DNA of 64,000 nt from Azolla caroliniana (taxonomy: Eukaryota > Plantae > Polypodiophyta). The notes under the pieces are model-generated. The model was given only the letters and a program-made list of their open reading frames with translations, was not told the DNA's origin and did no database searches. Positions within the stretch are counted from its first letter, which is position 1. Each line of letters starts with the position of its first letter. Positions 3,831 through 56,249 of the stretch are shown here, in pieces. The stretch is taken from assembly GCA_043228905.1 (NCBI GenBank), contig JBHGNT010000009.1:17174001-17238000 (forward strand), in the 5' to 3' direction. The position numbers were made by a program, and so were the translations under genes.

Positions 3831-5133
3831 TATCGTGAAAGTTTGAAAAATCACATATGAGTGTGTAAGTATGATTAATACAAACGATATATGTGCGTTG
3901 AAGTAACATTATGTGAACATAAATTTTATTGTCATGCAATTATATTGCTCATAGAGTCCCACTACTATAATCTATATGAGCTAGAGTATGTATGTAATGA
4001 TTTTTTTTCTCGGGTTCGCACATAGGATTTAAGGTGAAAAAAACCAATAAGGGAAAAATGCTTTCATTTGGCAAGGTACTTGACATTATGAAATGGTCTA
4101 AAAGATAGGAAATAAATGATTGATTGTAGCTCTTTAGTAATGCTATGAAGTATGTGCGTTGATCAAGGATAGATTAAATAAGGCACCGAGGATGAACTGG
4201 CAAGATGCCAAAATGTTAAAATTGGAATATTACATTGCAAATGTTAGCCCCTAATACAAGGTAAAAAGGCTAGAATTTGTTCATGACATGGTGTGCGCAA
4301 TGGAGAAAAAAGCCTAAAAACTAAGGTATATCATAAGGTAAGGTATAGTCAAAGAAATAACATAAGAACACAATAGTGGATGAGAATCAAAGAATTAAAT
4401 CAAGATAGCTCAATTGGCAAGAATTAATTGTTAGAAAACAAGGTGTAGGGATTGAATCTCGATAGAGGTGATGAAGGAAGGTGACCTATAGTGCACAAAG
4501 ATATAAGGATGAAGTATGGAGTATAAACAAAACGGGGAATCTACGCTTTATGAAAATCAAGTATCAAGGTCAAGTGTTACAAAAGGAAAGTTATTTTGGT
4601 AAGGGTCCTCTTGAAATTTATAAAAGGAGAATGAGAGCTCATTGCCACGGAAAGGCATCTTGATGGAGACGCCCAAGCTTTGTTAACGAACGAATTATTG
4701 CAGCACAATGAATCAAGAGGCATGTGAGAGGCCAATGATGACAAACACAATGTGGTCATCAATTGTCGTGCCAAAACTTGAGGATCTCCTACCTACACTC
4801 TTTTAATTCCTTGATCTCCATCATCTTATCCTTTCATACCCCATACTACGAACCCCACTTAACAAGGTTGAGTATTTAAACCTTCATTGTATCTTGTAGC
4901 AAGCTCCTAGTATTATCATGGTTTATTGTATATTTCCTATAATATGTTATGCATCTTTGGAAAAGATTTTCACTATGTCTTATGGAGAATCTTCATGAAA
5001 CTTTCGAGTTGAGATTTTGAGTCATTGGGCATACATCTACAAGTGAATTCGTGTAATTCACAATCTAGATGACATTCATTTCCGTACACTTCATCATGCG
5101 AACATTTAGGAAATTGTTGTGGAAATCACGACA
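3831..5133 (+). mobile_element. LTR-like element with TGTCG-type termini and internal tRNA-like segment (family X)
   Basis: 5' TATCGTGA / 3' TCACGACA; A-box TAGCTCAATTGG (4406-4417) and B-box-like GGATTGAATCTC (~4449-4460); no TSD (GTATT/TAGCC). Confidence 0.5.
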
Positions 5134-5344
5134 TAGCCTTTGGGTTGATAATCAACGTCCCCTAGAAGAAATTACATGCAAAAGAAAAATCAAACCCATG
5201 ACATCAAGTTCTAAGAAAACTGGTGTCCAATTAAGTAGGCATGCTCATATGTTGCCAAGCAAAATATCGTTGAATCGGGCATTAGGACATCAAGTTAGTG
5301 AAAGTCCCATCCACAAGAAAAGAGGAAACAAGGGACTTATCATA

Positions 5345-5507
5345 TTTCCCCTAAAATACCATTCTCCCGCCACACTTTCCCTAAATTCCCTTCTCCCAAC
5401 ACGCTTTCTCGAAATACCCTTCTCCCATCACACTTTCTCAAAATAACCTTCTCCATCACACTTTCTCGAAATACACTTCTCCCAATACACTTTCTCGAAA
5501 TACCCTT
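5345..5507. repeat. Minisatellite, ~28-bp unit, ~6 copies
   Basis: Repeated CACTTTCTCGAAATACCCTTCTCCCA(T/A)CA. Confidence 0.9.
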
Positions 5508-5577
5508 CTTGTTGCAAACTAAGACCATCGGTGCGGAAATACAGATCAACACTATAGGATGAAGGACAACAAGTTCT

Positions 5578-6372: not shown

Positions 6373-6499
6373 TGTCATAGTGTATTTCATACACTACGTG
6401 AAAAATGTACGGAGTACCCGATTGAATAAGTATGAAGAAAAAGAAGAGAATATTAAAATGTAGGTTACATGCACAAGACAAGATTCAAACGTTGTACCT
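6373..6499 (+). mobile_element. 5' fragment of family X element, interrupted by copia LTR
   Basis: TGTCATAGTGTATTTCATACACTACGTGAAAAATGTA aligns with the start of 33532-34291, including the terminal hairpin and the B-box region CAAGATTCAAAC. Confidence 0.7.
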
Positions 6500-6793
6500 T
6501 GTTGAGAATCAAGCTCAACCTAGCCTAGTGTGTGAACACACCCTTGAGAGTTTATGAACACTCAAAGGTCAAAAGTCACACCACTACTCTTTACACATTA
6601 ACTGTGTCATAGAATCATATTATATGACACATAACTAATGAGTTTCCACATTCCCCATGACTCATGAGCTTTGGTAGTTAATGAAGAGAGAGAGTGACTA
6701 TATAAAACACTCTCCTCCTACTTTGTAATACATCGGTTAATCTCCTTTGTAATATACAATCTTCTTGAGTATTTTCTATTATCGATCTTGTGT

Positions 6794-11225: not shown

Positions 11226-11877
11226 CAGCCGGCACACGTGGATATATCTCATCGAGAAGAAAAGCGAAGTCTTCGACTATTTCCAGAACCTTCAAAGGCT
11301 AGTCAAAAAGGAAACGAAGAGGAAGATCAAGTGCCTGTGGTCGGATGGCGGAAGAGAATACTTTTTTGGCCAATTCAACAGTTATCTGCAGTAGAACAGA
11401 AATCGGAGAGAATTCAGTTGTCGATACACACCGGAACAAAACGGTGTGGCCGAAAGAAAGAACCGGTCGATTGTCGATGCAGCAAGGGCAATGTTGGGGG
11501 AGAAGAGCATGCCCCAATTCTACTAGGCTTAGGCGGTTCGAGCGGCCGTCTCAGCCAGCACACGTGGATCTATCTCATCAAGAAGAAAAGCGAAGTCTTC
11601 GACTGATTCCAGAACCTTCAAAGCCTAGTCGAAAGGGAAACGGAGAGGAAGATCAAGTGCCTGCGGTCGGATGGCCGAAAAGAATACTTTTCCGGCCAAT
11701 TCAACAGTTATCTGCAGCAGAACGGAATTCGAAGAGAATTCAGTTGCCGATACACACTGAAACAAAACAGTGTGGCCGAAAGAAAGAACCGGTCGATTGT
11801 CGATGCGGCAAGGGCAATGCTGGGGGAGAAGAGCATGCCCCAATTCTACTAGGTTGAGGCAGTCCGGACGGCCGTCT
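11226..11877 (+). repeat. Tandem duplication (~326 bp) of the integrase core of element C
   Basis: CAGCC(G/A)GCACACGTGGAT...GCCGTCT at 11226-11551 repeated at 11552-11877. Confidence 0.92.
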
Positions 11878-14800
11878 ACATCCAAAACCGGATCGGAGAC
11901 AAGGTGTCACAACATGAGCTATATTTCGGGCGGAAGCCGAATTTGATGCACCTTCGGATATTCGATAGCATAGCATATGTGCATGTACCGGATGAGAAGC
12001 GGAAGAAGCTAGATTTGAAGTCAGAGAAATGCGTCCTAGTCGGTTACTCGCATGAGTAGAAGGGGTATAAGTCTTAAAACCCCCAGACTAAACATGTACG
12101 AATAAGTCGAGATGTCGAGTTTGATGAGTCGGCATCATGGTACTCCCTACCGACTCTAACACCCAACGAATGAGGCTAGTGAGCCCGAGGAGGTCTAGGA
12201 AGAAGATGAAGACTTTGGCACTCTAGAAGAGAGTCCGATCTCATTACGGCTAAGTGGGCCGAATGAGCGGTTGAGTCGGGATGACCAGTCGGATGAAGAA
12301 CCGACGAGTAATGGAGACTCTACCGTGCTCTCCCGTGCAAGGAACCGAGGAGACAGTTCACGCGCAAAGAGAAGGGGAAGAAGAAGATGTTGGAATATGA
12401 TACCGGTAGTGAAGGGTCAAATCAGAGTGAATCTGACCCCGGAAAGGGAGAAGGTAGGTCTTTAGAAAGGAAGTTTGAACTGGCCAAGAAGGGCCTCAAA
12501 CCGGGTAACAAAAAGTTACCCCAGTGAACCCTTCATGAGGTACGGGTACAATGAGTACAAGGTGCATCACTATGCGTACATGACTAAGGTGGTGGAAGAG
12601 AGTGAGCCGGAGAGCTACGCAGAAGCAGCGAAAGACGCAAATTGGCGTGCTGCTATGGAGGAAGAAATGTGGGCACTAGATGCCAACGACACATGGGACC
12701 TCGTTGACCCACCCCGACAGTGCAATCCGATCGGTTGCAAGTGGGTGTACAAGGTAAAGTACAACGTTGACAATTCGGTCAACCAGTACAAAGCCCGGTT
12801 AGTGGCGAAGGCATACGCACAAACCCACGAAATCGACTACGACGAGAGCTTCGCTCTAGTAGCGAAGATGACGGCAGTTCGTGTGGTACTAGTTGTTGTT
12901 GCGGCAAGGGGAGGGCATCTTCACCAAATGGATGTGAAGAATGCATTTCTTCACGATGATCTTGATGAACAGGTCTATATGATCCAACCCCCCGGTTTCC
13001 AATCGGAGATGAACAAGTCGACAGTGTGCCGACTCAAAAAGTCGCTTTACGGTCTGAAACAAGCCCCCCGAGCTTGGAATGCGAAGATCACGCACCAGTT
13101 GCGTAAGATGGGGTTTGTGGCCTCTAAGTCTAACTCTTCATTGTTCATCCGGAACGGTCCGGACGGTCCGGTTTGCATTTTGCTTTATGTAGATGATTTA
13201 GTCATCACCGGACCCGAACTCGATGAAACCTGCAAAGTGAAGTCCCAACTGTCGAACGCATTTGAAATGAAGGACCTAGGGGACCTTCATTATTTTCTTG
13301 GGATCGAGGTGATCCGAACCCCTGACATCATATTGCTCTCACAACGCCATTATGTGTTGAATATGTTTCACAAGTTCGGCATGACGGAATGCCAACCGAT
13401 CTCTACACCCCTGGACCAAAACCTAAAGCACACGTCCCCACTCCGGTCCGGCCTGCGATGAGAAACGGTTCCAACAAATTGTCAAAAGCCTTATATACTT
13501 GAAGATCACCCGACCCGACATCAATTATCCGGTCGGAGTGATCAACTAGTTCATGCAAAAGTCATCCGTCCAGCATCTTCAATGCGCACACCGGATACTC
13601 CGGTATGTTAGCGGCACGAAGGACCGAGGACTGTTATACTGACACGGTATAGCTAAAGAGCTTGGCGGATATACCGATGCCGACTGGGCTGGTGATGCAT
13701 CGGATCGTTGATCCACCTCCGATTACATGTTTTCTCTTGGTAGTGCGGTTGTTGCATGGAGCAGCAAAAAGCAGCCAACATTGGCTCCGTCGAGCACTGA
13801 GGCTAAATACCGGGGTGCTACCATTTCCACCTGTGAAGCCATCTGGCTTCGGCGACTTTTGCGTGACCTCCCGATCGAGGTGCCGACCCCGATCCCGATC
13901 CACTATGACAACATGAGCAGCATACAGCTCGCCAAGAACCCAGTGTTCCATACTCAAACAAAGCACATAGAAGTGCATTATCACTTTGTTCATGAGCGGG
14001 TACTGAGCGGTGAGGTTGAACTTCGGTATGTTCACACGGATCGGTAGTTGCCGACATCTTCACCAAGCCGCTCGGATCGGACAAGTTGCAACATTTTTTG
14101 GAGATGCTCGGCATTCAGCATCTCGATGTGCTGCACTTGAGGGGGAGAACAAGAACGGGAACGAATGGCACCGGACAAGGAGCCGGAGAGGAAGAAAGAA
14201 CCAAGGAGGGAGATAAGCAGAAAAAGGAAGCCGAGCCGACCACAGGAGTCGGCACATCCGAACAAGTCGGAGCAAGCGGCAGCGGCGGTAGAGTCAAGAA
14301 GGACAGAGCCGACCAGAAGAAGAAGGCCAAGACCAGGTCGTGGTCTGATGTGGTGAAGGGTCTGAAAACCGGAGACGAGTTGGAGAACACCAACTCAGAC
14401 AAGAGCCGGAACGAATCGGAAGCGACCGATTTGGACAAGAGCTAGAACGAATCGGAGACAGTTGATTCGGTTCAACAGATGGATTCGGAAGAGCCAGATC
14501 TTCTTAAGGCCAAGTGGACACGGACGCAACAGAAGTCGACGCCAACACGGAGGAGCTAACGGGTCGAGAAGCGCTAGAGTCGTAGCAGCGAGGGAGCTAA
14601 AATGGGCCTGTTGAGCAGACAAGTCGACCGAGGAGATGGAGGTACGCTGAACCGGAAGGGCCGCGGCAAACGAGACCGGACCGGATGAGGAGCGCGAGCA
14701 AGGTAGAATGACACCAAAAGGAGCCGGATGGAAGGACCGGCTACTGCAGACACTGACACCACGATCCGACCTCAAGTTGAGCTTGAGGGGGAGTGTTGAG

Positions 14801-15739
14801 CGAGCAAGCTCAACCGGATCCGGATCGGCTGAATAAGCCAGAGCCGGATCGGTATGCGGAACGGAGAACCAAATCGGTGTCCGGATGATATTCGGAACCA
14901 AGAGCCGGATCAAAGAGCCGGATCGGAATGAAACCGGCAAGCTGTTAGAGGCCTATGGATCCAGCCTAGTACGTATGCATATTTTTGGGAGTCAGTGACA
15001 ATTAGTACAACAATATTACATTTCACATTATACATGTGAAAGTGAGTAGTGACTCTCGATGTTCAAGAACTTTACCAATGAACGTTGCAATCAAGAGTGC
15101 ACATTCTGGTTGTGAGAGAAATTCGTGCAAGGATTGGGCTTGGTTGAAAATGTGCGCAATGAGAACCTAGTGGAGAGTAAATGTCACTTCCCACATACTC
15201 AACACATAAGGTAATTCTTGAGATGACTTATTGGACAGTCATGATAATTCAAGCATCATACTCAAATACCCACCAAGAAGGGTAAGCACATACATGTGTG
15301 CATTATTTTCACATAGAGAGTTTTTATTACAAAAAGTTGTCGTGTCTTTAGTCAATTCAATTGCCCCAAACTTTAGTAGATATTGAGTGGAGACCTTATA
15401 TACCCTCTCTTAGTAATATGAACGATTGTACTGAGTTTGCATAGATAAGCCAGTTTGTACCTCGTTTTATGTGTGTAGGAAAATCACATAGAGAGGTTCA
15501 ACCAAATCACACGACATTACAAACCAGGCATGATTGAGACAAGCGTGATTGCTTTGAGTCTCTCATGTTAGAATATCAAGTTGGGGTCTAGTTCATAACA
15601 CTCCATACAAAATCTGGGATAAACTTCCTTTACATAAAGGAAGGATTTCTTACCAACTTGAGAGGAGAGGAGTGAAGTGGAACCCATTGGCCAACTCTTC
15701 TCTTTGAACCAAGCCAAGAGTTTCCATAATGGGTTTGAA

Positions 15740-19710: not shown

Positions 19711-20226
19711 CCACACGCATAACTATGAGAGAATTGGCACATTTCTTGTCCTCATATTAACACGATATTGGTGCAACCACGAGTGAGGATGATGGTGATG
19801 GTGGTGATGGCATTTTGGCCTCACTCATGACTTAACTCTAACGAGAGAGAGAGACAGTGAGACAGAGAGAATGTGTGTGTTTGTTTGTAACTCACTACAT
19901 GGTGTCTAGTTTATACATATAGTTGAGAGACCACAAAGGAAGACCAAGAGAGGGTAGTTATCTAATAATGTGTGAGTGTGTGTGTTAAATGGAGAGATTG
20001 TCCAATTCAATGGCATCGTCATTATCATAAACTAATCGTGTTTGTAACTAATCGTGTTGTTTGTATGGGCTCACACTTCACCAAGAGACAAATCAAAACA
20101 ACATGCTCCGACTAGAATCGAGAGTGTGGTAAAGCTCTAGTAGAAGACGAAGCGGCATTGCCCCCTTCATCTACATCAACTTGAGAGAGAGAGAGAGAGA
20201 GAGAGCAAAGGAGAGTGACATAGAGA

Positions 20227-21103
20227 ATGGGCAATTGTCAAGCCACTAACTTGGATGTGGCCATTGTGGAGTGCCCAACTGGAAGAGTAGCGAGATTGTC
20301 CAATGTCCACGACATCTCGACTGCTCAGCACCTCATGTCTGATTATCCCAACCATTTCGTCACCCTAGTCGACATTAGTGCACCCTCTTTCATGAACACC
20401 TCCCCTTACATTACCAATCACCAATGGCATGGTTTCCCCAAACCTCATGTCGTGCCACCTCCCATTCAACTACTTCCACCGGATGCGCCCCTTCGCATTG
20501 GTCATCGATATCGTCTCGTCAGCTTTGAAGGTACAATCTCTTCAAGCATCAAGTCAACTTAAATTCTCTAAGAATTTCGCATAGTTAGTTGTAGGATCTT
20601 AAATCATAACCTTCAAGTCAACCATGATAATGTTCAATTAGTCACCAAAGAATCTATCAACCATTGTAATGTTAAATTAAGTTTTTGGCATCAATTTTAC
20701 GTAGTCTTGTTTAAATGTGGACGAGAATGGATCATACTCTAGAGGTTAGGTGCTTTATAATGTATATTTTCATAGTTTCATGGTATGCAAGATCAAGAAT
20801 CATAGCAATACTCATTTCTTTTCATTTATTGGATTGCCATATAGAACAAGATGTGTTTATAAGCACGCTCGTGAAATTAATTTGTTAGAAAAACTTGCAA
20901 AATGAACTTCATATGATCCTACTCCACTCACACTACATTGTTTATCCTTTTTGCCTACAGAAGTATTCACTCATTTCTCCCGAGGTGGTGCCTCAAGCAA
21001 TATAGTAAATGTAAGTGCAACACGTGTCCCTAACAAGGTTGTGCACCTTCAGTCTAGCAAATTAGCCACAATGACCAATCATGTAGTCAAAATAGGGTGT
21101 TGA
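20227..21103 (+). CDS. PADRE (DUF4228) family protein, 2 exons (20227-20530, 20961-21103)
   Basis: N-terminal MGNCQA (myristoylation/palmitoylation-type), P.GRV, 'LLPPDAPLRIGHRYRLVSFE|EVF' typical of DUF4228; GT donor 20531, AG acceptor 20959-60, in-frame TGA 21101-21103. Confidence 0.8.
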
Positions 21104-31258: not shown

Positions 31259-33531
31259 ATGTTCACTAAATACTAATGGATATACACTATACTATTATTT
31301 TTGAGCTCGGGTATTCACAATTTTAGAGATGTAACAACCATCTCCAAAATATCTTCCTTAAAAGCTCTCTCTTATAAATGCAAACATGAAACTAACATCC
31401 CAAAATTTGCAAACAAAATGCGAGTCATGCATGTTTTTGACTCATAGTTTTGCTTTTATATTTTGACAATAGCTTATTGTCATAGACTTGTATTTTGAAA
31501 ATATTTATAAGAAAAATGACCAAGAGATTACTCTCTATAGTGTAATTAAAGTAAGAATTCGATTAGTACTCTTCACGTCCAAATGTCAATATATTGGAGA
31601 AATATAAAAAGTTTTGACATCCCAAAATAAATAAGGGTTAATCATTTGCATGTCACCATTGCATTACATTGCATGTAAGTAAGTTATGGTGAACACGCAC
31701 CTTACCTAAACACAATCTCATTTATCAACATTCTCCCCCTTCCACCAAATAATCAATAAGTAAGAAAACCCACAGCCAAAATTCCTTAGAAAATGTTGGT
31801 ACCAACTACATCGCCCTCCTCCTCGAAGAACAAGAGAGTGACTAATATGCTTCAAATGTAGGTTGCACAATACTCGATGAAACTAAAAACCAATTGGATA
31901 ATTTATTAAGATTATCATAAGTGACCCCGATCACATGGTTGATTAATCTATCTTGTTAGGTGCATTAGGCAAAAAAAATATATCCCTTCAAAATGGTTAA
32001 GTTGATATATACTCCAAATATATTGCATATTCTTGTTTACATGTTTGATCTTAATTTTCATACAATTGGGAGCTTCATCTTTGATCAAGCATATATTTGG
32101 GAGATGTTTAAATGAGATACATTACTAGTTTCTCAAAGTTATACTGTTAAGAATCAAGCTCAACTTGGTCTAGTGTGTGAACTCACCTTGAGAGTGAATA
32201 GACACTCCAACGGTCAAGAGTCACCATTATGCCACCTCTTTGTATTCTAGCATTTAGTATGAGTCATAGAATCATATTCTATGACACATAACTTATGAGC
32301 TTTCACATTCCCCATGCTCCATGAGTTTTGTAGTTAATGAAGAGAGAGGGTGACTATATAAATCACCCTCCTCCCACCTTGTATATGTCGAGTCTTTCTC
32401 CTTTGTTAATATACTTTACCTTGCGTATTCTCTATGTTTTACTCCTTATCTCTCTCACTCTCTCTCTCTCTCTCATACACACACATAACTCACATCTCTT
32501 CCGCTTCAGAAGAATCATATCTGATTCTTTACATGGTATCAGAGCGGTTTGGTAGCTCCATCTAGCCCATCTGCGTTGACGTTCAAGAAGAACCGGCTCA
32601 TCGCTATCGTAGCTATCGTAGCTTTGCTACATAGCTCGCATTCGAAGAGAGAAGAAGAAGAAGAAGAAGAAGAATTGACATAATGAATACTCAAATGGGG
32701 AGCGCTCTCCCTACCGAGAAGTTGGATCGAAACAACTTCGCATATTGGGAGTACAAGATGCACCAATACCTTGTTGGACAAGGCTATTGGAGCTACATCA
32801 AAGGGGAGCACGAAGACCGACCAACCGAAGCGGCTCCCGGATACGCGACATGGGAGCAAGTCGCAAGCCCCGTGATGTATTGATTGGCGACATGTGTTGA
32901 CGATCACATGCTCGGCTACATTCGCGAAGCCAAGACGCCGAAGGAGGCATGGGAAAATCTACGAAAGATTTTCGCAGTGAACACAACCGCAAGAAGGCTT
33001 CAACTCCGCCAAGAGTTGAACAACATTCAACAAACGGACATGTCCATCATGACATACACCTCGAAGATCAAGGAGCTTTGCAATTCGCTTGGCTCGATAA
33101 GCGTAAATATCAATGATGATGAGATGGTGCAAATATGCCTCAACGGCCTCGCACCACGGTTCGGCGCGATGCGAACAACCATTCTAGCACGGGAGAAATC
33201 TCCCTCCTTCTTCGAGCTCCAATCAATGCTATTGGTCGAAGAAAACCACGTGCGTACAAGGAGCAATGAGTTGGAAGGCCGCATGCTCTACACGCACTCA
33301 AACGGAGGAAGAGGACGCAGATGAGCGAGAGGCCGATTCGGCCAAGGACAAGGCGGACGAGGTTCGACCTACGACAACAACTCCCAATTTCGGCCCCAAA
33401 ACGGAAGCCAACGAGGAACCTTCGCAAGAAGGGGGAGCTTCCACTCCAGCCCGAACCGTCAAAACACAACCAAATGCGGATATTGCGGAAAGTTCAGCCA
33501 CCACGAAGAAGAGTGCCGAAAGAAGATGTGA

Positions 33532-34291
33532 TGTCGTAGTGTGAATCACACACTACGTGAAATATGTAAAATACTATATCCAATTCAAAGTACGTATAAT
33601 AAAAAAATATTTATTATGTACATAGGGCAAGATTCAAACCCTATACCTGCACGTAGACAAACCCCAACTTTACCATTGTACTAACTTATCCTTAATATTT
33701 AATACCTATAAGGCCTTTATTTACGCCTACCTTTATTAAAAAGGTAAGTCATGCATTTTTACAGTGCGTGAATACTTTATTTATAAGAAAAATGTAAACC
33801 AATAAAATATTACTCGTGCACATTAGCGAGCATGAGCACTATATTTAGGAAATAAAAGCATAGTGTAAAAAGCAACTCATGCACATTTAGTGTGCATTAA
33901 CACTTTAGAAAAAGCATAGAGTCTATCTATAGAAAAAGCATGGATTGTTAAGACTCTCTCATCACTATATAAGGATGAGGAGCACAATGTAATAGGTGTG
34001 AAATATTTGGGAAATTGGATATATTTCCTAAAACACCAATTAATAAAATATATTCGTGGGATTCACGAAGTTTTATATAATCTACTCTTCCAATCTATGC
34101 TAAATTGTTATCAGGATTCTAAATATTAATAAATCTAATTATATATATACTTGTGGGATTCACAAGTTCTTTTATCTCTTTCTTATAATCTATTCATAAC
34201 TAGTCTTGTCTCAAATTCTTCCTCCTCCTAGTCCAAAACCCAGTGGTTCCCACCCGACTCACGCAATGATCTGGTGCCGAAAGGCACGACA
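33532..34291 (+). mobile_element. Family X LTR-like insertion in gag of element B
   Basis: TGTCGTAG...CACGACA; interrupts the KKM(R)ESA sequence after the zinc knuckle; TATA CTATATAAG ~33965; minus-strand tRNA-like segment 33624-33686; terminal hairpins. Confidence 0.85.
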
Positions 34292-36522
34292 ACGCGAATC
34301 GGCTTCCACAAGCCGACAACTCACGAATTACGCGCACAATTCTGACTACGAAGAGTATAGTGGAATGTACGGGTACAACTCCAACTACGAAGATCGTGGC
34401 GGAATGTACGCACACAACTCCGACCGTGGCGGAATGTTCATGATGAAACATAGAGCAAACTCTATGTCGGCCTCTACCTCAACTAGTGCCCTCAATTCGG
34501 AGGACGTATGGTTTGTGGACTCCAGAGCCTCAAACCATATGATATCTCATAAAGAATGGTTTCTCGAACTTCGAGAGCCGAAGCGACCCGGTTATGTCGA
34601 AACCGGAGATGACACTATGCACCCGATTCGGCACATCGGCAATGTTCCGTTCGGCGAAAGAGGTAAGCAAATATACATTAAAAATGTCTTCATGTTCCCA
34701 CCATCACAAAGAATTTGGTCTCAATTAGCCAAATGGTTGAGCAAGGGATGCAAGTACGATTCGACCAAGAAGGGTGCTTCATCGAAAAAGAAGGCCGAAT
34801 CATCGCGCACGGAAGAAGAGAGAGCCAGATGTTCATTCTCGATTCACACGAGATGAAATCTGCCATGTTCGCAAAAAGCACGAAAGTCGACTCCGACATA
34901 GAGCTATCGCACAAGCGAATCAGCCACATCAATCTCAACAAACTCAAAGCAATGAAATCGAAAGGAGTTGTCATCGGACTCCCGACATTCAAAGAGAAAG
35001 AGATTGATGCGAAGTGTGCCAATTCGGCAAGCAACACCAACACCCATTCCCGAATGAGTGGAACGTGAGCAAAGGTCTCAACGTAGTCCATTCTGACGTA
35101 TGGGGACCGACGCAGACGACTACATTCGGCGGATGCCAATATTACGTGCTCTTCATCAACGACTTCTCCATGCACACTTGGATCTATCAGATGCGGCAAA
35201 AGAGCGAAGTGTTCGGACACTTCCAAAAATTTAAGAATGCAGTTGAGAAAGCCACGGGTCGTCATGTACAATGCCTTCAATCGGATGGCGGCAAGGAGTA
35301 CTTCTCGGACGATTTCACAGCGTATCTCCGAAAGGAAGGAATTTGGCGAGAATTCACTTGCTGACACACTCCGCAACAAAATGGAGTAGCCGAGCACAAA
35401 AATCGGCACATCCTTGAAGTAGCGCGGACCATTATAAACGAGAAGCATATGCCCAAGTCATATATGGGTTGAAACTGCAAATATGGCCGTCTACCTAATG
35501 AACCGGTGCACAACATCTGAAGTGCATGAGGTCATTCCGCACGAAAAATACTTCAGAAAGAAGCCGAACTTATCACACACCCGAATATTCGGCGCGATAG
35601 CGTACGTGCACATCCCTGACGAGAAGCGTCAAAAGCTCGACCCGAAGTCGGAGAAATGTATCCTCGTAGGATACTCACTAGAGCAAAAGGGGGACAAGTG
35701 CTACAACCCCTCAACTCGAAAATCTCGAGTAAGTCGAGACGTCGTTTTTGACGAGTCCGCATCCTGGTACGCACCAGAGACAACTTCGACTCTGACTCTG
35801 CTCGACCCGGAATCCGCCGAACAAGAGGATGAAGATCGCCTTACGCGCATGTTCGAAGAAAGTCCGATCACGACCCAATTGAGCGGACCACAAGAGCCTT
35901 TGAGTGATCAAAGCACATCACGGCCTAGCCCGAAGATGGACAAAGGCAAGGCGAAAATGGCGGAATACGAAGACGATCGCTTCGACGACGATGAGTCGAC
36001 TCCCTCACTCGACAATGAGTTCGACGGCTTCGATGTACCAATCGGAGCTAAGAAAGCCCTCATCTCTGCAAATGAAAAGCTTCGTCGCTCCACCCGTGAC
36101 AAGAATTCAGTCAACCGATTCGACTACAACGACTACATGGCATATCACTATGCCTTTATGATGAAGGTGGCAACAATACACGAGCCAGAAACATTTTCCC
36201 ATGCAACCAAGGATCCATGATGGATCGAAGCCATGAACGAGGAGATGCAGGCCCTACGCAAGAACGAGACATGGGATCTCGTTCCCACCTCACCATAACA
36301 AAAGGCGATCGGATGCAGATGGATTTACAAAGTGAAGTACAATGCTGACGGTTCCGTCAACTGCTACAAAGCGCGACTCGTAGCGAAAGGCTACGCCCAA
36401 ACGCACGCAGTTGACTACGAGGAGACCTTTGCCCCGATGGCAAAGATGACGACGGTACAGACCGTAATTGTGCTTGCCACGGTGAAAGGGTGGCACCTCC
36501 ATCAAATAGACGTCAAGAACAA

Positions 36523-37883
36523 TATCGCGAAGATTTTTGACAATGGTGTGAAAATCGCATAAAACATACGAAATCGAGTATGAATCATATAAAACAATAA
36601 TAGTGAAAATACTATTTTAAATATTTGTAATATCTTAGTACAAAAAGATGGAGGTCTGCAAGAGCTTTCAAATGCACCTTACTACATAAGAAACGGACAT
36701 CTATGTCTCAAGTCATGTGGGTAGGAAGTTTGCAAAGGAAAAGAGAAAAATAAAATTGTGAAATATACCACATAGATAGGAAAAAGTTTAGGCCCAGCTA
36801 TATAAGCAGATTGAGATCCATCATAATTTATCTATGTGTTAAGAGCACATAAGAATGGTTGGACTTGAGCCACTTTTGTCTAGATGGACATATGTGGCTA
36901 AGTCGCCGGATGTGGCTAAGTGCCCAAACCGGTTGGTGAAGAAAAACTCAAACCGGCTGACGACAGAACCAGAAAACCAGATGGAGCCGGCAATCCGTGA
37001 CCGGATGCATCCGGCAACTGGTGATTGGACGGATCCGGCAACCGGTGACGGAATCGGTGATCGACAGTAACCGGTGGTAACCGACGACATCCGGAGCCAG
37101 CAAGACCGACATCCGACGATGGAGCCGGTGTGTCGGTGAGTCGGTGAACACCGACAACGGAGCCGGTGACCGGCAAGCGACTCGGGATGCGGACTAGGCC
37201 GAACCAAACGGATGCAAATCGGATGGATCGGTCGGGTCGGTTGATCGCGGTGCATGGTGTCTTAAAGATGTTTGGTCCAAAAGCCTAATAGTATTTTGTG
37301 CATAAAAGAAAAAGATGTAATCAAGACTTGAACTTAACACCTCCAAGATAGGAAGCAATAGGCTTGCCATTAAGCCAAACCATTTCTTTAGAGATTATAT
37401 TTTTATCATTATGACTTTACATGTAAATTCTCATACATGAGAGCTAAAATAAGTGGCATGGTTATCATGCACCACATGTAATACATGAGCGCCAAATGGC
37501 AAACATGCATTTTATGCATGTCTTGTACCCTCAAATGCATGAGGGCATCTATAAAAGAGGGGAGGAAAAAAAGAAAAGGTAATGTAAATTTTTTATCAAG
37601 AGCTTTGTACTTTATATCAAAATTAATATTAAGAATAAAATTCATTATCCAATTGATATATTAATCTTGTTCTTCAAATCTAAAGTTAAGAGTTCAATCT
37701 TACTGTCTCTCTCCATTTCAATCTCTCTCAATCTAAAGTCAAGCGTTTAATCTCAATTTCTCTCTCTCTCAATCTATCTTAAATACTTTCTCGCTAAAGC
37801 TTGTGCGTACATCAAGTCCTTCTGGTCCAGAACCCCGGCGGTTCCACCTCACGATCCGCACATAGTGACGGATCTTCACGACA
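36523..37883 (+). mobile_element. Family X LTR-like insertion in RT of element B
   Basis: TATCGCGAAGAT...ATCTTCACGACA inverted ends; splits DVKN|AFLQG; GC-rich CCGG repeat tract 36900-37250; minus-strand tRNA-like segment 37319-37381; TATA CTATAAAAG ~37550. Confidence 0.85.
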
Positions 37884-40800
37884 TAGCCTTTCTACAAGGC
37901 GAATTAGAAGAGGAGGTGTATATGATACAACCACCCAGCTTCAACTCAAGCACTGCGTGCTTGGCATTCGAAGATAACGCAATATCTTCATCAAATCGGC
38001 TTCCCTATGTCAAAATATGACAATTCCCTCTACATACGAAGCGATTCCGCAAGTCCAATCGTCATCATCTTATATGTGGATGACCTAGTCATTGGAGGTG
38101 AGCATCTCGTTGAAATCAATCAGGTCAAATCCCTCCTTTCCAACAAGTTCGAGATGACGGCCATGAAGGAGCTCCACTACTTCCTCGGCATAGAGGTAAT
38201 TCGGACTCCGGCCGGAATCATGATCTATCAACAACACTATATCCTCAACTTGTTATACAAGTTCGGGATGACTGAGTGCAAAATCCGCGAAAACCCCGCT
38301 CGATCACAATCTCAAACTAGATGCGAACTCCGGCACCAAAGCGTGTGAGCCGACTCAGTATCGGCAACTCATCGGGAGTCTCATCTACCTCACGATCACT
38401 CGACCTGATCTCAATTATCTGATCGGTCTCCTTAGCCAATTCATGCAAACACCGTGTGGTACTCACTTGGATTGAGCTAAGCGAGTTCTACGATACGTGA
38501 GCGGCACAATGCATTGTGGCATCCTCTACAAGACCGTGATGCCAATACGCCTCGAGGGGTACACTGACGTTGATTGGGCCGGCTACAAAGCCGATAGAAG
38601 ATCAACCTCCGGATTTATTTTTTCCCTCGGCAGCGGAGCAATATCCTCGAGCAGCAAAAACCAACCAATCGTCGCTCTTTCGAGCATAGAGGCGGAATAC
38701 AGGAGCGCGGTAGTGGCTGCATGTGAAACCGTGTGGCTCAAAAGAATACTCAAGGATTTGGGCGTACCCATCAAGGATTCAACTTCCCTTTACTGCGACA
38801 ACATGAGCAATGTCTATATGGCTCGGAACCCGATGTTCCACGCGCGAACAAAGCACATCGAAGTGCACTATCACTTCATCCGAGAGCGTGTTCTAGTTGG
38901 CGATGTCGACCTACAACACATTAGCACCAATCTCCAAATGGCCGACATCTTCACTAAAGCCTTAGGAGCCGACAAGTTGTGGCAATTCATGACCGATCTC
39001 GGATTGATGATCCCTGACCTGCCAAGTTTGAGGGGGAGTACTAAAGACACTACGCAATAACGCGTGGATTCCGTAACCGCGCAACGAAGCCGCGAAGAAA
39101 GACGCAAGCCGAAGCACAGACTTCGCAACTACGCACAACGCAAGCTGGAGCACAGATTCCGCAACTCCGCATAAATGCGAGTCGACGCGGACTCCAAAAC
39201 GTGAGTTGAAGCGGATTTCGGATACCGTCTAAAACCGACCCAACTTGAGCTTGAGGGGGCGTGTTGAGAATCAAGCTCAACTTGGTCTAGTGTGTGAACT
39301 CACCTTGAGAGTGAATAGACACTCCCACAGTCAAGAGTCACCATTATGCCACCTCTTTGTATTCTAGCATTTAGTATGAGTCATAGAAACATATTTTATG
39401 ACACATAACTTATGAGCTTTCACATTCCCCGTGCTCCATGAGTCTTGTAGTTAATGAAGAGAGAGGGTGACTATATAAAGCACCCTCCTCCCACCTTGTA
39501 TATGTCGAGTCTTTCTCCTTTGTTAATATACTTTACCTTGCGTATTCTCTGTGTTTTACTCCTTGTCTCTCTCACTCTCTCTCTCTCTCTCTCTCATACA
39601 CACACATAATTCACATCTCTTCCGCTTCACAAGAATCATATTTGATTCTTTACATATACAAACACTCAATGATTTTGAATGTTAAAACATTTATGAATTT
39701 ATGTCTTCCTTCTATGTATCAATAGAAATTATTGAGGGAGAAGCTATAATTGAAGACAGAATGGAAGATAATTTAATTTACATAAACTCTTGAAGTCAAG
39801 AGATTGGGGGCTTTTGAATTCACGGCCTTGTGTTTGTGGACTAGACTTCAAGTTTGTTACTTTGATATATGGCATGTAGTTCAGGAGAAATAGATAAACA
39901 AGAAAAACAAGAATGTGACCCTAGGACATTGCATGTTGAAAGTCAAATGATTGCGTATAATGTTAATAGATCGTAGGGTTTATCGATTATGCTAATGTAT
40001 GAGATATTATGTGCGCATGTGTGATATATAGAAAGAGAGAGAGTAAGCTTGAGTTTCTGGAATGTGTTTGTTTTGCACAATTTCAAAGGAACATGTAGAC
40101 ATCAATTTATCAATTGTCTAGTGGCAAGGCTATAATTTATAAGTGGAGTGTCAAAATCTTCGTTTTAATGGGTGTTTGGTCATTTGAAACCAAGAAAACC
40201 TTTTGCACATTTTGAGATAGTCGTTCAATATCTAAGGCATTGGGGATTATGGCATAATTAGCATATGCAGAATGCCTTTATTTTTTATGTTGAATATGGG
40301 GTTGAAAGATACTTTTAACGATTAAAAGGCATACTAGTATAATAGTTTTCCTTATTGGAAACTTTAGGGAGGTTGTCAAAGAGGAAATTAAAGATTTGTA
40401 GGCTAGCAATGCGTCATGTTCGTCGTTTGCATTGGCCTTTATCAATTGGGACTTTTAGCTCCATAATGATGGATGCATCTAGATATAGATTAGCGGTGTC
40501 ACGAGAATTCTTATTGATTGATTATGTGGGTACCCATAGGATATCATAGTTCATATACTATTGTAATGACTTCCGTAATTAACATGTTATTATTTATGGG
40601 GGAAAAGTGAGTATGCATGAAGGTTGTCTAGTGTGTTATGGAACCCATGATATTATATTAGTTTCATTGTTGCCATGGACAAAGACAGCTTTGCATTCCT
40701 TATTTCGCTCAGGTCGAATTAGTAGTGGAGAAAGAAGGCTAAGATGGGAATCACATGGGTTGCATGGGACCATCTAACAATTCCTTAGCACTTCGGGGGA

Positions 40801-44232: not shown

Positions 44233-44307
<75 letters not shown>

Positions 44308-44791
44308 GCCCATATGGATGTAGCTCAGTTGGTAAGGTTTCCTAACAGAGACCAGGGGGTCATGGGTTCAACCCCTACATTCCACGATGGCATATAGTGA
44401 AATAAGAGATATCTATAGAGTATGTAATAGAGAGGCGAGAAAATTGGGTTGTGAACCCAAGATGTAGTGCTAGTAGTGTATAACAACTTACCACTAAGGT
44501 AAGCTAATTACGATACAGAGAGAGAGAGAGAGCGAACACATTATATGCAAGAAACGAGAAAAACTGTATTAACAAGACAAGAATGCACCAACAATTACAA
44601 TGAGGGAGATAAATGTGCTTATGTAGTCGCCTTCTCTCTGTACAATCACCACACTTATTAAAGAGAAGTGGAGACTTAACTACACTAAATATGTGTCATA
44701 AAACTTTAAGGTTCTATGACACACTAGTTACTATATTAGGAAGTGGGGTGTTCACACACTTGAGTATACTAAGGTGTGTTCCTATACTAGG
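42080..44791 (-). mobile_element. Ty1/copia element E (family A), internally deleted (no INT core/RT/RH)
   Basis: PBS (rc GCTCTGATACCA) 44186-97; LTRs 44198-~44791 (truncated) and 42080-42451; gag, PR and LWHKRIGH then abrupt join to LTR with no PPT. Confidence 0.88.
44306..44516 (+). mobile_element. tRNA-derived SINE-like element inserted in the (GA)n tract of an LTR
   Basis: A-box TAGCTCAGTTGG (44321-32), B-box GGTTCAACCCC (~44365-75); flanked by (GA)n on both sides; absent from sister LTR 42080-42451. Confidence 0.8.
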
Positions 44792-48477: not shown

Positions 48478-51400
48478 ATGCTTAACAGCACAGGAAACTC
48501 GAACTTGCTTGATTCTAATAGCACAACAAGACCATTCACATCATCGTTCTCAGGACAATCTGGCTCAAATCCTATTTTCCATCAGACAGGTAAAGAAAAA
48601 TAGAGAGCGTGCATAGGGAAGAATCCTCTTGTGAATAATGCAAGGTAGTGTCGAATGTCAAACGTTGAAAGGGTTTCAGTTCTTTGATGCATGCAGGATT
48701 GATTGTTTTGGATTGGCTATGATTCAGGCAGCATTCAGGGGTTGCAGAACGTGCATGGGAATTACAATATGCCGACGATTCCTTCAATCTCTTCGAGAAA
48801 TTCTGGTCTAGGATCTGCACCAGGTGGTTCTGCTCACCAATCACCAGGAAGATTCACTAGCAACAACTTATCATCTTCTTTGGCTCAGGCATGTTTATTC
48901 TTTGCTATTTTCACTATTATTTTTTGTTATTCTTATTCTGCGTTCTCTATTAGGACTCCTGTTGATGTAGGTGATGGAATATTACTGATGGAAAAAGTCT
49001 GAAATACCCCTGATTATTATTTTTATTTTCACTAAATGCCCTTGTATGTTTGTTATTTCCCCAAATGCCCTTTGCCAACTCCCAAAGAAGGCAATAAACT
49101 GACTGTATAATCATCAAATAATACTATAGTTGAGAAAAAGGGGAGAAATTGACTATATAATTGCTCAACTAGTGCATATGATCACTCTTTCACAGTTTGA
49201 CCAAGGGCATTTGGGGAAACTATGAAAATTTGGGGGCATTTGGGGAAATAAAGAAAATGTTAGGGGCTTTTTGGATTTGTTGTCTTGTTTTTTATGTGGA
49301 AGTTCTATTTCCCTTCCTTATAAAAGCAATACCTTGAATATTTCAGATATCCCATAGCGGACTGCATGGTATGACAAGTAGGAGTGGCGGGAGTGTTGGG
49401 GGAAGCAGTGCATATAGTACGAGTATGAATGGATCTGTCAGTTCTGTTTCGGGGCCCTCTCAAGGTTCGGGAGGTGTGAACAATAGAGGAACACTTCCTG
49501 GTTTAGGGGTTTCTCCATCAATGATGGGAGGTGCTGGTCCTCGTATAACAAGCTCGGTCAGCAATATGGTCACTGGTTCTGTGAGTGGCGGTGCTAGCAT
49601 GGGTCGCACCATTAATCCTGGAAGTGGACTCAATCTACCCACTTTCAGTGGTTCACGGGTGAATCTAGGTTCAAGTAATGTGTCTGGAGGTGTTGGTATG
49701 CAAGGACCTGGAAGACCTCTCAGTAATGTACTTCAACAAGGTAAACATAATTTCAACTCAAACGGGAACCTTATCCTTAAGTATTGTTCAGATGATAAGT
49801 TCTACCCATAATCTCAAAGTTTTTTCACTGATAATACAAATAGAATGCAATTTACTAATCGTAAGTAATTATTCTTTAATCCTGGACTGGAAACGCTGAT
49901 AATCCTGAGTTTGTGCCAGTTTTGCTAATAAAGTGCTTGCTTTTAGCCAAATCAGCAAACATGTTTATCCATAAAGTTTGTCAGTGTTTGAATCAGAACT
50001 TGTCCTCAACTTGTCTAATCAAGGAGCAGAAAGAACTTACTAGAGTGAAATGTTCATATATATATATATATTTATTTATTATGCATTCTAGATTTGAAAT
50101 GCTGAGAAATCTCGACTTTGTCCCAGTTTTACTAATGAAGTGCTCAGTTTTAGTCAAACTAATGAACATGCTTATCCATAAGTTTTGTTAATGTTCGAAT
50201 CAGCTATTATCCTCAACCTGTTCAGTTTAAGGAGCATAAAGATCTGATGAGAATGAAAGGTTCATATATATTTGTTGTGTGCATGTGTATATCTACACAC
50301 AACATATGTATATGTGCTACATTACAGATGCATATATGTATCTGCATGTTCACACACATTTTTATACATGGACGTACGTATGTATTTAAATTTGAAGCCA
50401 ATATTTTCGGTTTAATAATGGTTGCCACATGGACATGTTCCTAAAACCTCCCTTTAATTGTTTGAAAATTTGAACTGACACAACTTTCATTCTTAACACA
50501 ACACTAAAAATATTCATAGTTTGAAAAATCTGAAATCTCTAAGAATTGACTTGTAGGACGTAGTCTGAAAACCTGTATCTTGTTCAAAACCCTAACCTTT
50601 AGATACAGACAGCCTCATACAGCTTGCAGCTCATGAGAGAGAATACTAGAACTCAATTCCAATGTAACTGAGGAAACATCAATAAAAACTCGTGTGGTAT
50701 CTCTAAACACTTCCATTTTGAAACTCAAAATCTGCGTAGACTATATGCAAACTGGGCCATAGACTTGTCCCATGTGCTGAGTTCATATACAATTGCTGGT
50801 TTAGTTTCCCGATCACATAGAGTTTCCTTTCTGGGAGAAGTAAACAGTTATTAGTGCCAACTAGGTTTTGACCATTTAAGATTCAAAGAGAAAGGAAAAA
50901 CAGGTTCTCCAGACAACTACAATGGTCTAAATATTGTGGGAAAGGGTTTCCTTATCGACAAAGAAATTTTATGATCATAATTATGAGAAGAAGGTAGAAA
51001 ACTCGCCAAGACATTGACTAAGCTTATGACAGTCAATTGAATATCTTGTAGCATGAAAGGTGGAAAAGATGAGAAAAGAACTATCCCTCTGCATTTAGGG
51101 AAATGATGTAATTTGACATTGATGAATCTCTTTTACAACCAACTATTAAGTTCTAATAAAAAAATATTCAGCCAAATGCTGGACTCTAGTGCACAAACAT
51201 ATAATGTGGTTTGATGTTTGAATGAGGCAGTGATTTAGCTTTATATAACCGAATAGAAAGAGAAAACAAAGATGTACACTTTTAGTGATATTCATTGGAC
51301 CTTGAAATATTGATCCTATCTTCAATTACACAATCCTAAAGCTGAATGTATGGGTGTAAAAACAGTTGTGATGGGAAATTGTTCTTAGTTCTTGCTCAGT

Positions 51401-54400: not shown

Positions 54401-56249
54401 TAGTCAATTTCAAGTGGAATGTCTCTTTCAAACTCACAGGGAGGCGAATATTTCATTTTTAGATGTGCATATCTTCATTGAATATACCCAGAGACAAAAT
54501 CTCAAGGGATAACCTGTGGATTGTTTGAAGTTTTACTAATGTATTTGTATCTGAATTTATTTATTTATTTAGTTTTGCTTTCCAAGATGAGACAGTTCTT
54601 TTCAGATGGAATGTCTCTTTCAGTCCCATAGGCCATTCTTGCCTCTTAAAAGTTTAATATTTTGTTCTTTCTGTGTGCATATATTCTATACTACCATATA
54701 AATTCTAATCTTTATAGCTATATTTCTCCGTCCTTGAAAAGTATCCACACACATCTCCATTTAAACATAGGAAATGATAGAAATACTGAAAGGCATTGTT
54801 TTTAGGCATCGATGAATATTTTGAAGTATCTCGGAAACTGATTTGCCTCAATACAATTCAGATGGGAAGGTCAGCAGGCTTTACTCTAGGTGGGTCTTAT
54901 GGACAACACAGGCAACAACATCAGGGATCACCTATTATGTCTACAAGTGCTGCACCTGGGTCTTTCAGCGGGGCAAACTCTTCTGATTTGTTGCAAATGC
55001 ACTCAGCGGCTGATGTATTTCAGGTCTTACATATTCCAATTTCTCATTTCAAAAAAGTTGATTCTTGCTTAGAGATCAAATGACTATAATTCAGTGCAAA
55101 TTTTGTAGTTTTAATAAACATTTTGTGCAGGCTCAAACAGTAGGTCCTCCTGGTGCAAGTAGTGCACAGCTACCCATATCTAGCTTGAGGTCAAGTGCGA
55201 ACCTAGTATCTGGGATAGGGTCATATGAGCAACTGGTTCAGCAGTATCACCAACAACATAACCAATCTCAGTATAGGCTTGGTGCGCACCAACAGCAATT
55301 AGTTGCTGGAGTCCAGTCTTCTAGAGAACAAGGACTGCGAACCATGGGAATTGATCGCTATAGTTTACTTGGTTTGCTGGGTGTTATAAGGATGACCAAT
55401 CCTGATCTCACAACTTTGGCACTTGGTACCGACCTCACGACTTTAGGTTTGAATCTTAATTCTAGAGATAATCTCTACAGGACGTTTGCATCACCGTGGG
55501 CCGAGGGTCCTGCAAAAGGTGAACCAGAGTTTACCTTGCCTCAATGCTATGTCCATGAGGCTCCTCCACTTCAGGTTGGTTTAAGAACTTCCTGAGATTT
55601 GGTTTCCTTTTTTTTGTGATGATATTTTAAAGGTTTGCATCTCTACACAGCCTGAATATTTTACGAAGTTTCAGCAGGCTACACTCTTTTATATATTCTA
55701 CAGGTTTGTTTTCGATAGATTCATTGAGGAATTCAATCTTGCAGCATTCATTTATAACCTTTGTATGACTGTTACTTGAACTATACTTTGCAGTATGCCA
55801 AATGATGAAGCACAATTATATGCTGCCAATGAGCTGTGAGTGTCCAACATCTTCATCAACATCTTAGAATTCATTTATGGGAAACATTAGGTTATGAAGA
55901 TGGGTTTCTCAAGTTTTCTTTGAATCTAATAGTGCTATTAAATTTCAGGTATAATAGGACTTGGTTCTATCATAAAGATCTACGTGTTTGGTTTATTCGT
56001 GTACCAAATGTTGAACCTCTTGTGACCACAGCAACATATGAGCGAGGATCATACTTTTATTTTGATGTCAACACCTGGGATATAGGACGGAAGGTATAAA
56101 TTAACATATATTTTGAAGAAGATGGTTTCTGGGCTTTATGTGTGAATAACTGCATTATATTTATCTCCATCTTAAAATGTTTATTGCAGGACCACTTTGT
56201 ACTTCAATACGAAATGATAGAAAAGAGACCACAACTTACACAACATTAG
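48478..56249 (+). CDS. NOT2: CCR4-NOT complex subunit NOT2 (VIP2-like); coding exons 48478-48589, 48728-48888, 49347-49740, 53106-53315, 53393-53491, 53570-53655, 54862-55023, 55131-55574, 55651-55703, 55794-55835, 55949-56093, 56190-56249
   Basis: Plant NOT2 motifs SFSGQSG, QGLQNVHGNYN, FDLNDFPQL, EFSIQNEDFPALPG, LALGTDLTTLGLNLNS, TFASPW, TLFYIFYSMP, WFYHK, YERGSY; splice sites in consistent phase; the true start may lie in a short upstream exon. Confidence 0.93.
48990..49280. mobile_element. Foldback/MULE-like MITE in NOT2 intron
   Basis: Long imperfect inverted repeats TTCCCCAAATGCCC / GGGCATTTGGGGAA; TSD not evident. Confidence 0.55.
49890..50270. repeat. Intronic tandem duplication (~205-bp period)
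   Basis: GAAA.GCTGA.AA.C...TTTGT.CCAGTTTT.CTAAT...TTATCCATAA...TCCTCAAC at ~49890 and ~50095. Confidence 0.8.

What the first reader, a model, noticed from the sequence alone, without database searches (positions are those of the whole stretch)
36521..37885. LTR-like insertion with no target-site duplication but two extra nucleotides at each end
Seen: the host copia RT reads GAC GTC AAG AAC | GCC TTT CTA CAA GGC (DVKN|AFLQG) once 36521-37885 is removed, so no host base is lost or duplicated. The insert is AA-[TATCGCGAAGAT...ATCTTCACGACA]-TA. Known: DDE integrases of LTR elements trim 2 nt beyond the terminal CA and leave 4-6-bp TSDs, as every intact copia insertion in this window does (TATAC, GAAGA, CATAT, ATATA, GGAGA). 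Inference: these look like unprocessed linear cDNA ends (NN-TG...CA-NN) joined bluntly, or a 4-bp stagger repaired using the element's flaps, or a recombinase-type insertion. Any of these would be a non-canonical integration route.
Basis: partly seen in the sequence, partly recalled or inferred. Interest (0 to 1): 0.8.

Follow-up and report, generated by a model that had tools for sequence, protein, structure and literature searches.

The report
Overwritten target duplication at solo LTR
This is the leftover end-repeat of a plant jumping gene whose relatives sit directly against CG-centred host sites; in this one copy the usual 4-base duplication was likely overwritten by the element's own loose ends during repair, so it is likely a rare repair slip and not a new way of inserting.

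Summary
Observation confirmed: removing 36521-37885 restores DVKN|AFLQG, and the empty site is seen in 4 of 4 runs. The insert is a non-coding 1361-bp solo LTR plus 4 net extra bases, which is the length of a 4-bp TSD. Family-wide the junction is ordinary: 6 of 6 independent metagenome copies have CA flush against N-C-G/A-N, and 93-115 contigs per run continue after CA with consensus ACGT. This matches the Phygy gypsy clade (4-bp NCGN TSD, tRNA-Trp PBS; PMC6317226), and the host site here is ACGC. The right-hand TA equals the first two bases of the family's 8-nt LTR-to-PBS spacer. Independent point mutation is unlikely (about 1e-9 to 1e-5). Best reading: normal 4-bp staggered integration whose gaps were likely half-filled with the element's own overhang, as proposed for one base at one XMRV junction (PMC2857682). 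A second insertion in the same host also has altered junction bases. The left AA could not be tested, and an assembly artefact is not excluded. The scan noted Phygy-like elements elsewhere in this genome, but not this junction pattern.

The parts
32145..39654 (+). Host Ty1/copia element, decayed, LTRs 32145-32533 and 39262-39654, perfect 5-bp TSD TATAC
   Evidence: 13 substitutions in 389 LTR columns; RVT_2 and SH3_retrovirus hits
36519..36522 (+). Left flank ACAA: host AC plus non-host AA where a duplicated ACGC would have GC
36523..37883 (+). Solo LTR (1361 bp) of a high-copy, Phygy-like Ty3/gypsy family (inferred from target motif and PBS); non-coding
36523..36534 (+). Left terminal inverted repeat TATCGCGAAGAT (starts TA; TG expected from the right repeat), 10 of 12 identical to the right repeat
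37549..37556 (+). TATA-like box CTATAAAA followed by a CT-rich tract; orients the LTR on the + strand (inferred)
   Evidence: conserved in L004
37872..37883 (+). Right terminal inverted repeat ending CACGACA, conserved in 8 metagenome loci (last 50 nt differ by 3-6 bases in the 7 compared)
37884..37887 (+). Right flank TAGC: non-host TA, equal to the first two bases of the family's LTR-to-PBS spacer TAATTAAG, plus host GC
33532..34291 (+). Second solo LTR (760 bp, different family, TGTCG...CGACA) in the gag region of the same host; also net +4 bp at a CG-centred site; flanks GTGA / ACGC against host GCGC or GCGT
6373..6499 (+). 5' fragment of a second-family LTR preceded directly by ACGT (NCGN), interrupted by a copia LTR at 6500

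Best explanation
The 1361-bp insert is a non-coding solo LTR whose family ends directly against CG-centred (NCGN) host sites, and this copy likely integrated normally with a 4-bp staggered cut at ACGC, after which repair likely filled only two bases of each gap from the host and kept two bases of the element's own 5' overhang. Shown: the net gain is 4 bp at a host ACGC; other copies have CA flush against NCGN; TA is what follows the LTR in copies that keep the internal region. Inferred: a DDE integrase of a Phygy-like gypsy made the cut; the overhang (predicted 8 nt on the PBS side) was trimmed to 2 nt, ligated in register and fixed by mismatch repair on both sides; LTR-LTR recombination later left a solo LTR; the left AA came from the sequence before the 3' LTR (untested).
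For: Net +4 bp centred on a CpG. Of 9 metagenome hits, 1 was unrelated (L001) and 8 were family copies at 6 independent sites, with right flanks ACAG, TCGT, CCGG, CCGC, CCGT, CCGG: 5 of 6 intact CG, 1 CA, 0 of 6 TA (CG is 2.6% of window dinucleotides). In 4 of 4 runs 93-115 contigs leave the LTR right after CA with consensus starting ACGT and agreement 0.36-0.38 (many different sites), and 15-24 contigs per run continue CA-TA-ATTAAG-TGG... with agreement 0.87-0.90 (shared internal start). LTR-adjacent bases match the host in the 2 junctions testable against window paralogs (L004 Val GT; L009 second family GCGT). Phygy: 4-bp TSD, NCGN, tRNA-Trp PBS 81% (PMC6317226). Independent mutation needs 3 transversions plus 1 CpG transition in 4 adjacent positions: 2e-9 to 2e-5 under rates from the host LTR pair, while 5 of 5 five-bp TSDs in the window are perfect. 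[quoted passage not shown] Both NCGN inserts in this host have A directly before the LTR where the host predicts C or T.
Against: The left AA was not tested: no full-length copy or left junction of this family was recovered. No copy other than the window's was seen with both ends, so the 4-bp TSD of this family is inferred from single junctions, the net +4 and Phygy. TA matching the spacer has a 1 in 16 chance prior. Two-sided, in-register retention of exactly 2 nt needs both mismatches fixed towards the element; replication alone would fix one side per daughter. G to A at 36521 and at 36524 are ordinary methylation-decay changes, so part of the pattern needs no special cause. No run reproduced this junction (best holder 0.42 of words; the one contig spanning 37840-37893 has 8 other letters). 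The site was picked from a very large scan, which weakens the small mutation probabilities. The XMRV precedent is itself a speculation by its authors.
Confidence: 0.52

Rival explanations
1. Ordinary 4-bp ACGC duplication, altered when the solo LTR formed: annealing of the two LTRs leaves two tails that begin with the element's internal neighbours (TA after the 5' LTR, the bases before the 3' LTR), and two bases of each were kept in register.
For: Explains TA equally well, needs no 8-to-2 trimming at integration, and both altered insertions in the window are solo LTRs.
Against: 4 solo LTRs of other families in the window keep perfect 5-bp TSDs. Tail removal normally cuts at or inside the duplex (own knowledge). 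It needs the same two-sided fixation.
Confidence: 0.14
2. Ordinary ACGC duplication decayed after insertion by point or tandem mutation (CpG decay plus error-prone synthesis such as GC to AA, a recalled translesion signature).
For: CpG-centred TSDs decay fast (L002-4 flank ACAG; 6373 copy TGTCAT). The second insert needs only two methylation-type transitions and one transversion. The scan selects extreme sites.
Against: 2e-9 to 2e-5 under independent mutation; 0 adjacent substitution pairs in 389 host LTR columns; 5 of 5 other TSDs perfect; the last 50 nt of this LTR keep most of their CpGs; the right-hand change equals the spacer.
Confidence: 0.12
3. Assembly or polishing artefact: bases next to a very high-copy LTR were corrected towards the commonest neighbours (PBS side and PPT side), in register.
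For: Predicts in-register substitution by TA; no independent run reproduces the junction; the family is very high-copy.
Against: Perfect TSDs at other high-copy LTRs in the same window. The commonest continuation after CA by contig count is not TA.
Confidence: 0.1
4. Blunt joining of unprocessed or partly trimmed cDNA ends, or a recombinase-type insertion, as a distinct route of this family.
For: Sequence outcome at this site is identical; two of two two-ended NCGN inserts in the window lack a clean TSD; TA is element-like.
Against: 0 of 6 independent copies have TA after CA; 93-115 contigs per run leave directly after CA with a non-T base; the spacer is 8 nt, not 2; the site sits on the CpG axis of the integrase-type NCGN motif; no recombinase or HUH domain in 9 insert ORFs.
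Confidence: 0.07

Closest known systems
Phygy clade of non-chromovirus Ty3/gypsy LTR retrotransposons (Neumann et al. 2019, PMC6317226; passages and supplementary file 3 read)
   Same: NCGN target motif, 4-bp net gain, PBS that I recall as complementary to tRNA-Trp, TG...CA-type inverted termini.
   Different: Described there as specific to Physcomitrella patens, while this genome is likely a fern (earlier AI notes, not tested). This copy's flanks are not a duplication. The PBS lies 8 nt from the LTR (Phygy spacer length not seen). No coding sequence was recovered to place it by phylogeny.
TatI clade (same paper, supplementary file 3)
   Same: 4-bp TSD (100% of 4) and tRNA-Trp PBS (75%).
   Different: No NCGN preference reported; defined by an aRH domain, not testable on a solo LTR.
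XMRV provirus clone C-8 (PMC2857682; passages and results section read)
   Same: 4-bp staggered integration with an A replacing the host base next to the left LTR, proposed to come from misincorporation or the unpaired 5' AA.
   Different: One base on one side in a cultured-cell retrovirus; here two bases on both sides in an inherited plant LTR.
Solo LTRs without TSDs from inter-element recombination (listed, e.g. PMC4079214; search listing and abstract start only)
   Same: A solo LTR with unlike flanks.
   Different: Here the two flanks are one continuous host reading frame, so they do not come from two different loci.

Membership tests
Phygy (non-chromovirus Ty3/gypsy) | Insertion preference for NCGN | tested here: met
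   6 of 6 independent right junctions N-C-G/A-N; contig consensus ACGT in 4 of 4 runs; host 4-mer ACGC
Phygy (non-chromovirus Ty3/gypsy) | 4-bp target-site duplication | tested here: inconclusive
   Net +4 bp at both window inserts but left and right flanks differ; no other two-ended copy of this family was available
Phygy (non-chromovirus Ty3/gypsy) | PBS complementary to tRNA-Trp | tested here: inconclusive
   A conserved TGG-starting site follows the LTR after 8 nt. Its identity as tRNA-Trp is recalled; 0 of 31 viral loci with the motif were tRNA genes and the literature string search found nothing
Phygy (non-chromovirus Ty3/gypsy) | RT/RH/INT phylogeny in the Phygy clade, no chromodomain, no aRH | not testable with these tools
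   No internal coding region recovered
LTR retrotransposon solo LTR | TG...CA termini with short inverted repeats, promoter-like anatomy, no coding capacity | tested here: met
   10 of 12 inverted match, CA end conserved, start reads TA in this copy, TATA-like box, no Pfam hit above cut-off in 9 ORFs
LTR retrotransposon solo LTR | Same repeat followed by a PBS in full-length copies | tested here: met
   15-24 contigs per run, agreement 0.87-0.90, 4 of 4 runs
LTR retrotransposon solo LTR | PPT before the 3' LTR | not testable with these tools
   No left junction of the family was displayed or found
Tyrosine-recombinase or HUH elements (DIRS, Crypton, Helitron, Replitron; features recalled) | No TSD family-wide, element-fixed ends, recombinase or HUH gene | tested here: not met
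   Host sequence flush against CA in other copies, tRNA-type PBS, no such domain in the insert

The most novel reading that the evidence does not exclude
CG-targeting Phygy-like elements in this genome, whose cDNA is predicted to end in an unusually long 8-nt overhang, routinely have overhang bases written into the target duplication during gap repair (both two-ended copies in this window show it). A sizeable share of copies would then be born without a recognisable TSD, would be missed by TSD-based LTR finders, and would record the real cDNA ends in the genome.
Probability: 0.15. Interest if true: 0.55.

Novelty: new variant of a known kind. Interest (0 to 1): 0.28.

Why it matters
If the junction is real, it is a natural record of how the host repairs the integration gap in a plant LTR retrotransposon, a step known mostly from retroviruses, and extends a one-base, one-sided observation to two bases on both sides. 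It would matter more if frequent, because LTR annotation filters on TSDs and Phygy's '100% 4-bp TSD' comes from a TSD-requiring search. It is not evidence of a new integration enzyme. A side result: a Phygy-like NCGN-targeting family with an 8-nt LTR-PBS spacer outside the moss in which Phygy was defined (host clade not tested here).

Tried and rejected
No genome is held, so the genome-wide TSD table could not be made. No second copy of the insert in the window and no PBS-like site within 3 mismatches. An inverted-termini scan of the window was mostly chance pairs and its output was cut. Viral contigs: 2 hits to the right end were unrelated; left end, spacer-PBS and tRNA-arm patterns gave 0; 31 hits to a 15-mer held no tRNA gene. 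Genome contigs: 21 hits, none matching the insert beyond about 24 bases, treated as chance. Rfam: only snoR35 at 48512. The protein atlas gave no answer on host clade. Rejected readings: Tc1/mariner with TA duplication (would leave extra bases in the conserved DVKNAF frame); 2-bp CG duplication plus one fixed element base (would put T after CA in all copies; 1 of 6 has it); inter-locus recombination (flanks are one reading frame); TA start as a family trait like tomato TARE1 (PMC3701649, abstract only; not testable, left ends not seen). Literature searches that found no report of two-sided overhang retention in plant LTR elements. PMC5371799 (passages) and PMC12973397 (abstract and outline) had nothing relevant; one paper asked for by DOI was not held. 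The per-element table of PMC6317226 (Additional file 1) did not appear among the 17,418 characters of supplements held and may give Phygy spacer lengths.

Full report
1. Observation. The host is a decayed Ty1/copia element (32145-39654; LTRs differ at 13 of 389 columns; TSD TATAC) whose RT is interrupted after DVKN; both flanks hit RVT_2. Without 36521-37885 the frame continues AFLQG, a paralog at 12728-12999 aligns without a gap, and contigs joining 36520 to 37886 occur in 4 of 4 runs laid. The insert is AA + 1361 bp + TA. The net gain outside the TA/TG...CA unit is 4 bp, at the host 4-mer ACGC. The same facts can be written as a 4-bp duplication whose two LTR-adjacent bases differ on each side: ACAA left, TAGC right.

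2. What the insert is. It has 12-bp terminal inverted repeats (10 of 12 identical), a TATA-like box at 37549 followed by a CT-rich tract, and no Pfam family above cut-off in the 9 of its 23 listed ORFs that I scanned. It is single in the window but high-copy in public runs. No genome is held, so I looked for other copies in two ways. A metagenome scan with the right end gave 9 loci: L001 is unrelated and was dropped; L002-L004 are one site; L005-L009 are five more. The four bases after CA are ACAG, TCGT, CCGG, CCGC, CCGT and CCGG: 5 of 6 intact CG, 1 CA, none TA. Laying contigs of four runs (three samples at most) on 37836-37900 showed two classes. 93-115 contigs per run leave right after CA, with consensus starting ACGT and agreement 0.36-0.38, as expected for many different host sites with a CG-centred preference. 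15-24 contigs per run continue CA-TA-ATTAAG-TGGTGAACCC..., agreement 0.87-0.90, as expected for the shared start of the internal region: an 8-nt spacer and a PBS. Only 24 of 90 loose-end rows were shown, so the share of copies with T after CA is not known. I recall this PBS as the complement of the plant tRNA-Trp 3' end; my attempts to verify that failed. In the two junctions testable against paralogs in the window, the bases next to the LTR match the host (L004: Val GT in 4 of 4 paralogs, although the outer base of that 4-mer differs; L009, second family: GCGT). L006 is in frame with a chromodomain-like host ORF, consistent but without a paralog to test.

3. A second case. The same host carries a second, unrelated 760-bp solo LTR at 33532-34291 with TGTCG...CGACA ends. 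All gap-free alignments to paralogs need removal of exactly 4 extra bases. Host haplotypes read ATG CGC/CGT GAA, so the target is GCGC or GCGT; the flanks are GTGA and ACGC. With GCGC, two changes are methylation-type transitions and one is C to A directly before TG. Another piece of that family at 6373, and one in L009, are preceded directly by ACGT. So 2 of 2 two-ended NCGN inserts in the window have altered LTR-adjacent bases, while 5 of 5 five-bp TSDs are perfect.

4. Mechanism. Neumann et al. (PMC6317226; passages; supplementary file 3) report that Phygy elements alone prefer NCGN, with 4-bp TSDs in 186 of 186 elements (found by a TSD-requiring search) and a tRNA-Trp PBS in 81%. PMC6911290 (passages) also finds 4-bp TSDs commonest in Phygy. 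The family here fits that profile, so integration by a DDE integrase with a 4-bp stagger is the inferred norm. For this copy, independent mutation requires three transversions and a CpG transition at four adjacent positions; rates from the host LTR pair give 2e-9 to 2e-5, from half the pair divergence to three times it. That estimate rests on 4 transversions and ignores tandem mutations and the selection of odd sites by a large scan. The right-hand TA equals the start of the spacer, the bases that the cDNA's 5' overhang would place there. [quoted passage not shown] I therefore favour normal staggered integration with overhang capture during gap repair (0.52), over retention of the same bases during solo-LTR formation (0.14), post-insertion decay (0.12), an assembly artefact (0.10) and blunt or recombinase-type insertion as a family route (0.07). 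Against my reading: the left AA is untested, the TA match has a 1 in 16 prior, an 8-nt overhang must be trimmed to exactly 2, both mismatches must be fixed towards the element, two of the changes near the left junction are ordinary methylation decay, and no run reproduces the junction.

5. Comparison and novelty. It works like a Phygy-type gypsy LTR; membership is not established, because no coding region was recovered and TatI shares the 4-bp TSD and Trp PBS. Tyrosine-recombinase and HUH classes fail on family-wide flanks. Ten literature searches found no report of two-sided overhang retention in plant LTR elements; the library lacks most subscription journals. Earlier scan notes mention Phygy-like nested elements and a likely fern host (e1-10618240, e1-10617911) and gypsy families with a tRNA-like site 2 nt before the 3' LTR (e1-10598439); I did not test these, and none of the listed notes describes this junction pattern.

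6. Verdict. Real in the assembly, but a property of this copy, not shown for the family: a new variant of a known kind, interest 0.28. If a genome-wide count showed that overhang capture is frequent in these CG-targeting elements (probability about 0.15), interest would be about 0.55.

Noticed in passing
window 33528-34295: Second solo LTR (760 bp, TGTCG...CGACA) in the same host copia, net +4 bp at a CG-centred site, flanks GTGA / ACGC; A next to the LTR on both sides where the host predicts other bases.
   Followed up: yes
loose ends behind window 37885: Full-length copies of the family have an 8-nt spacer (TAATTAAG) between the LTR's CA and the PBS, longer than the 0-3 nt I recall as usual; it predicts a long cDNA overhang or an extra trimming step.
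   Followed up: partly
window 5115-5141: A 19-bp near-palindrome TGTTGTG-GAAAT-CACGACA; the 16-mer TCACGACATAGCCTTT occurs both here and across the right junction at 37876-37891 (0 of 100 shuffles gave a match; pattern chosen after the fact). Unexplained, may be chance.
   Followed up: partly
window 15338-15516: 179-bp stretch bounded by a perfect 8-bp inverted repeat TGTCGTGT...ACACGACA with no matching flanks; possible small relic or chance.
   Followed up: no
L009 2859-2975: Internally deleted 103-bp copy of the second LTR family with ACGT on the left and ACGC on the right, joining two different host sequences.
   Followed up: partly
window 11226-11877: Tandem duplication of 326 bp (91% identical) inside a nested copia integrase region.
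   Followed up: no
window 44306-44512: About 200-bp insertion in a copia LTR microsatellite that begins with a tRNA-like sequence (SINE-like); related pieces near 2000-2340.
   Followed up: no
window 48512-48589 (-), 55833-56096 (+), 20224-20559 (+): snoR35, a NOT2/3/5 C-terminal exon and a PADRE-domain ORF: host genes around the retrotransposon clusters.
   Followed up: no
window 5338-5509: Tandem array of about 29-bp units.
   Followed up: no
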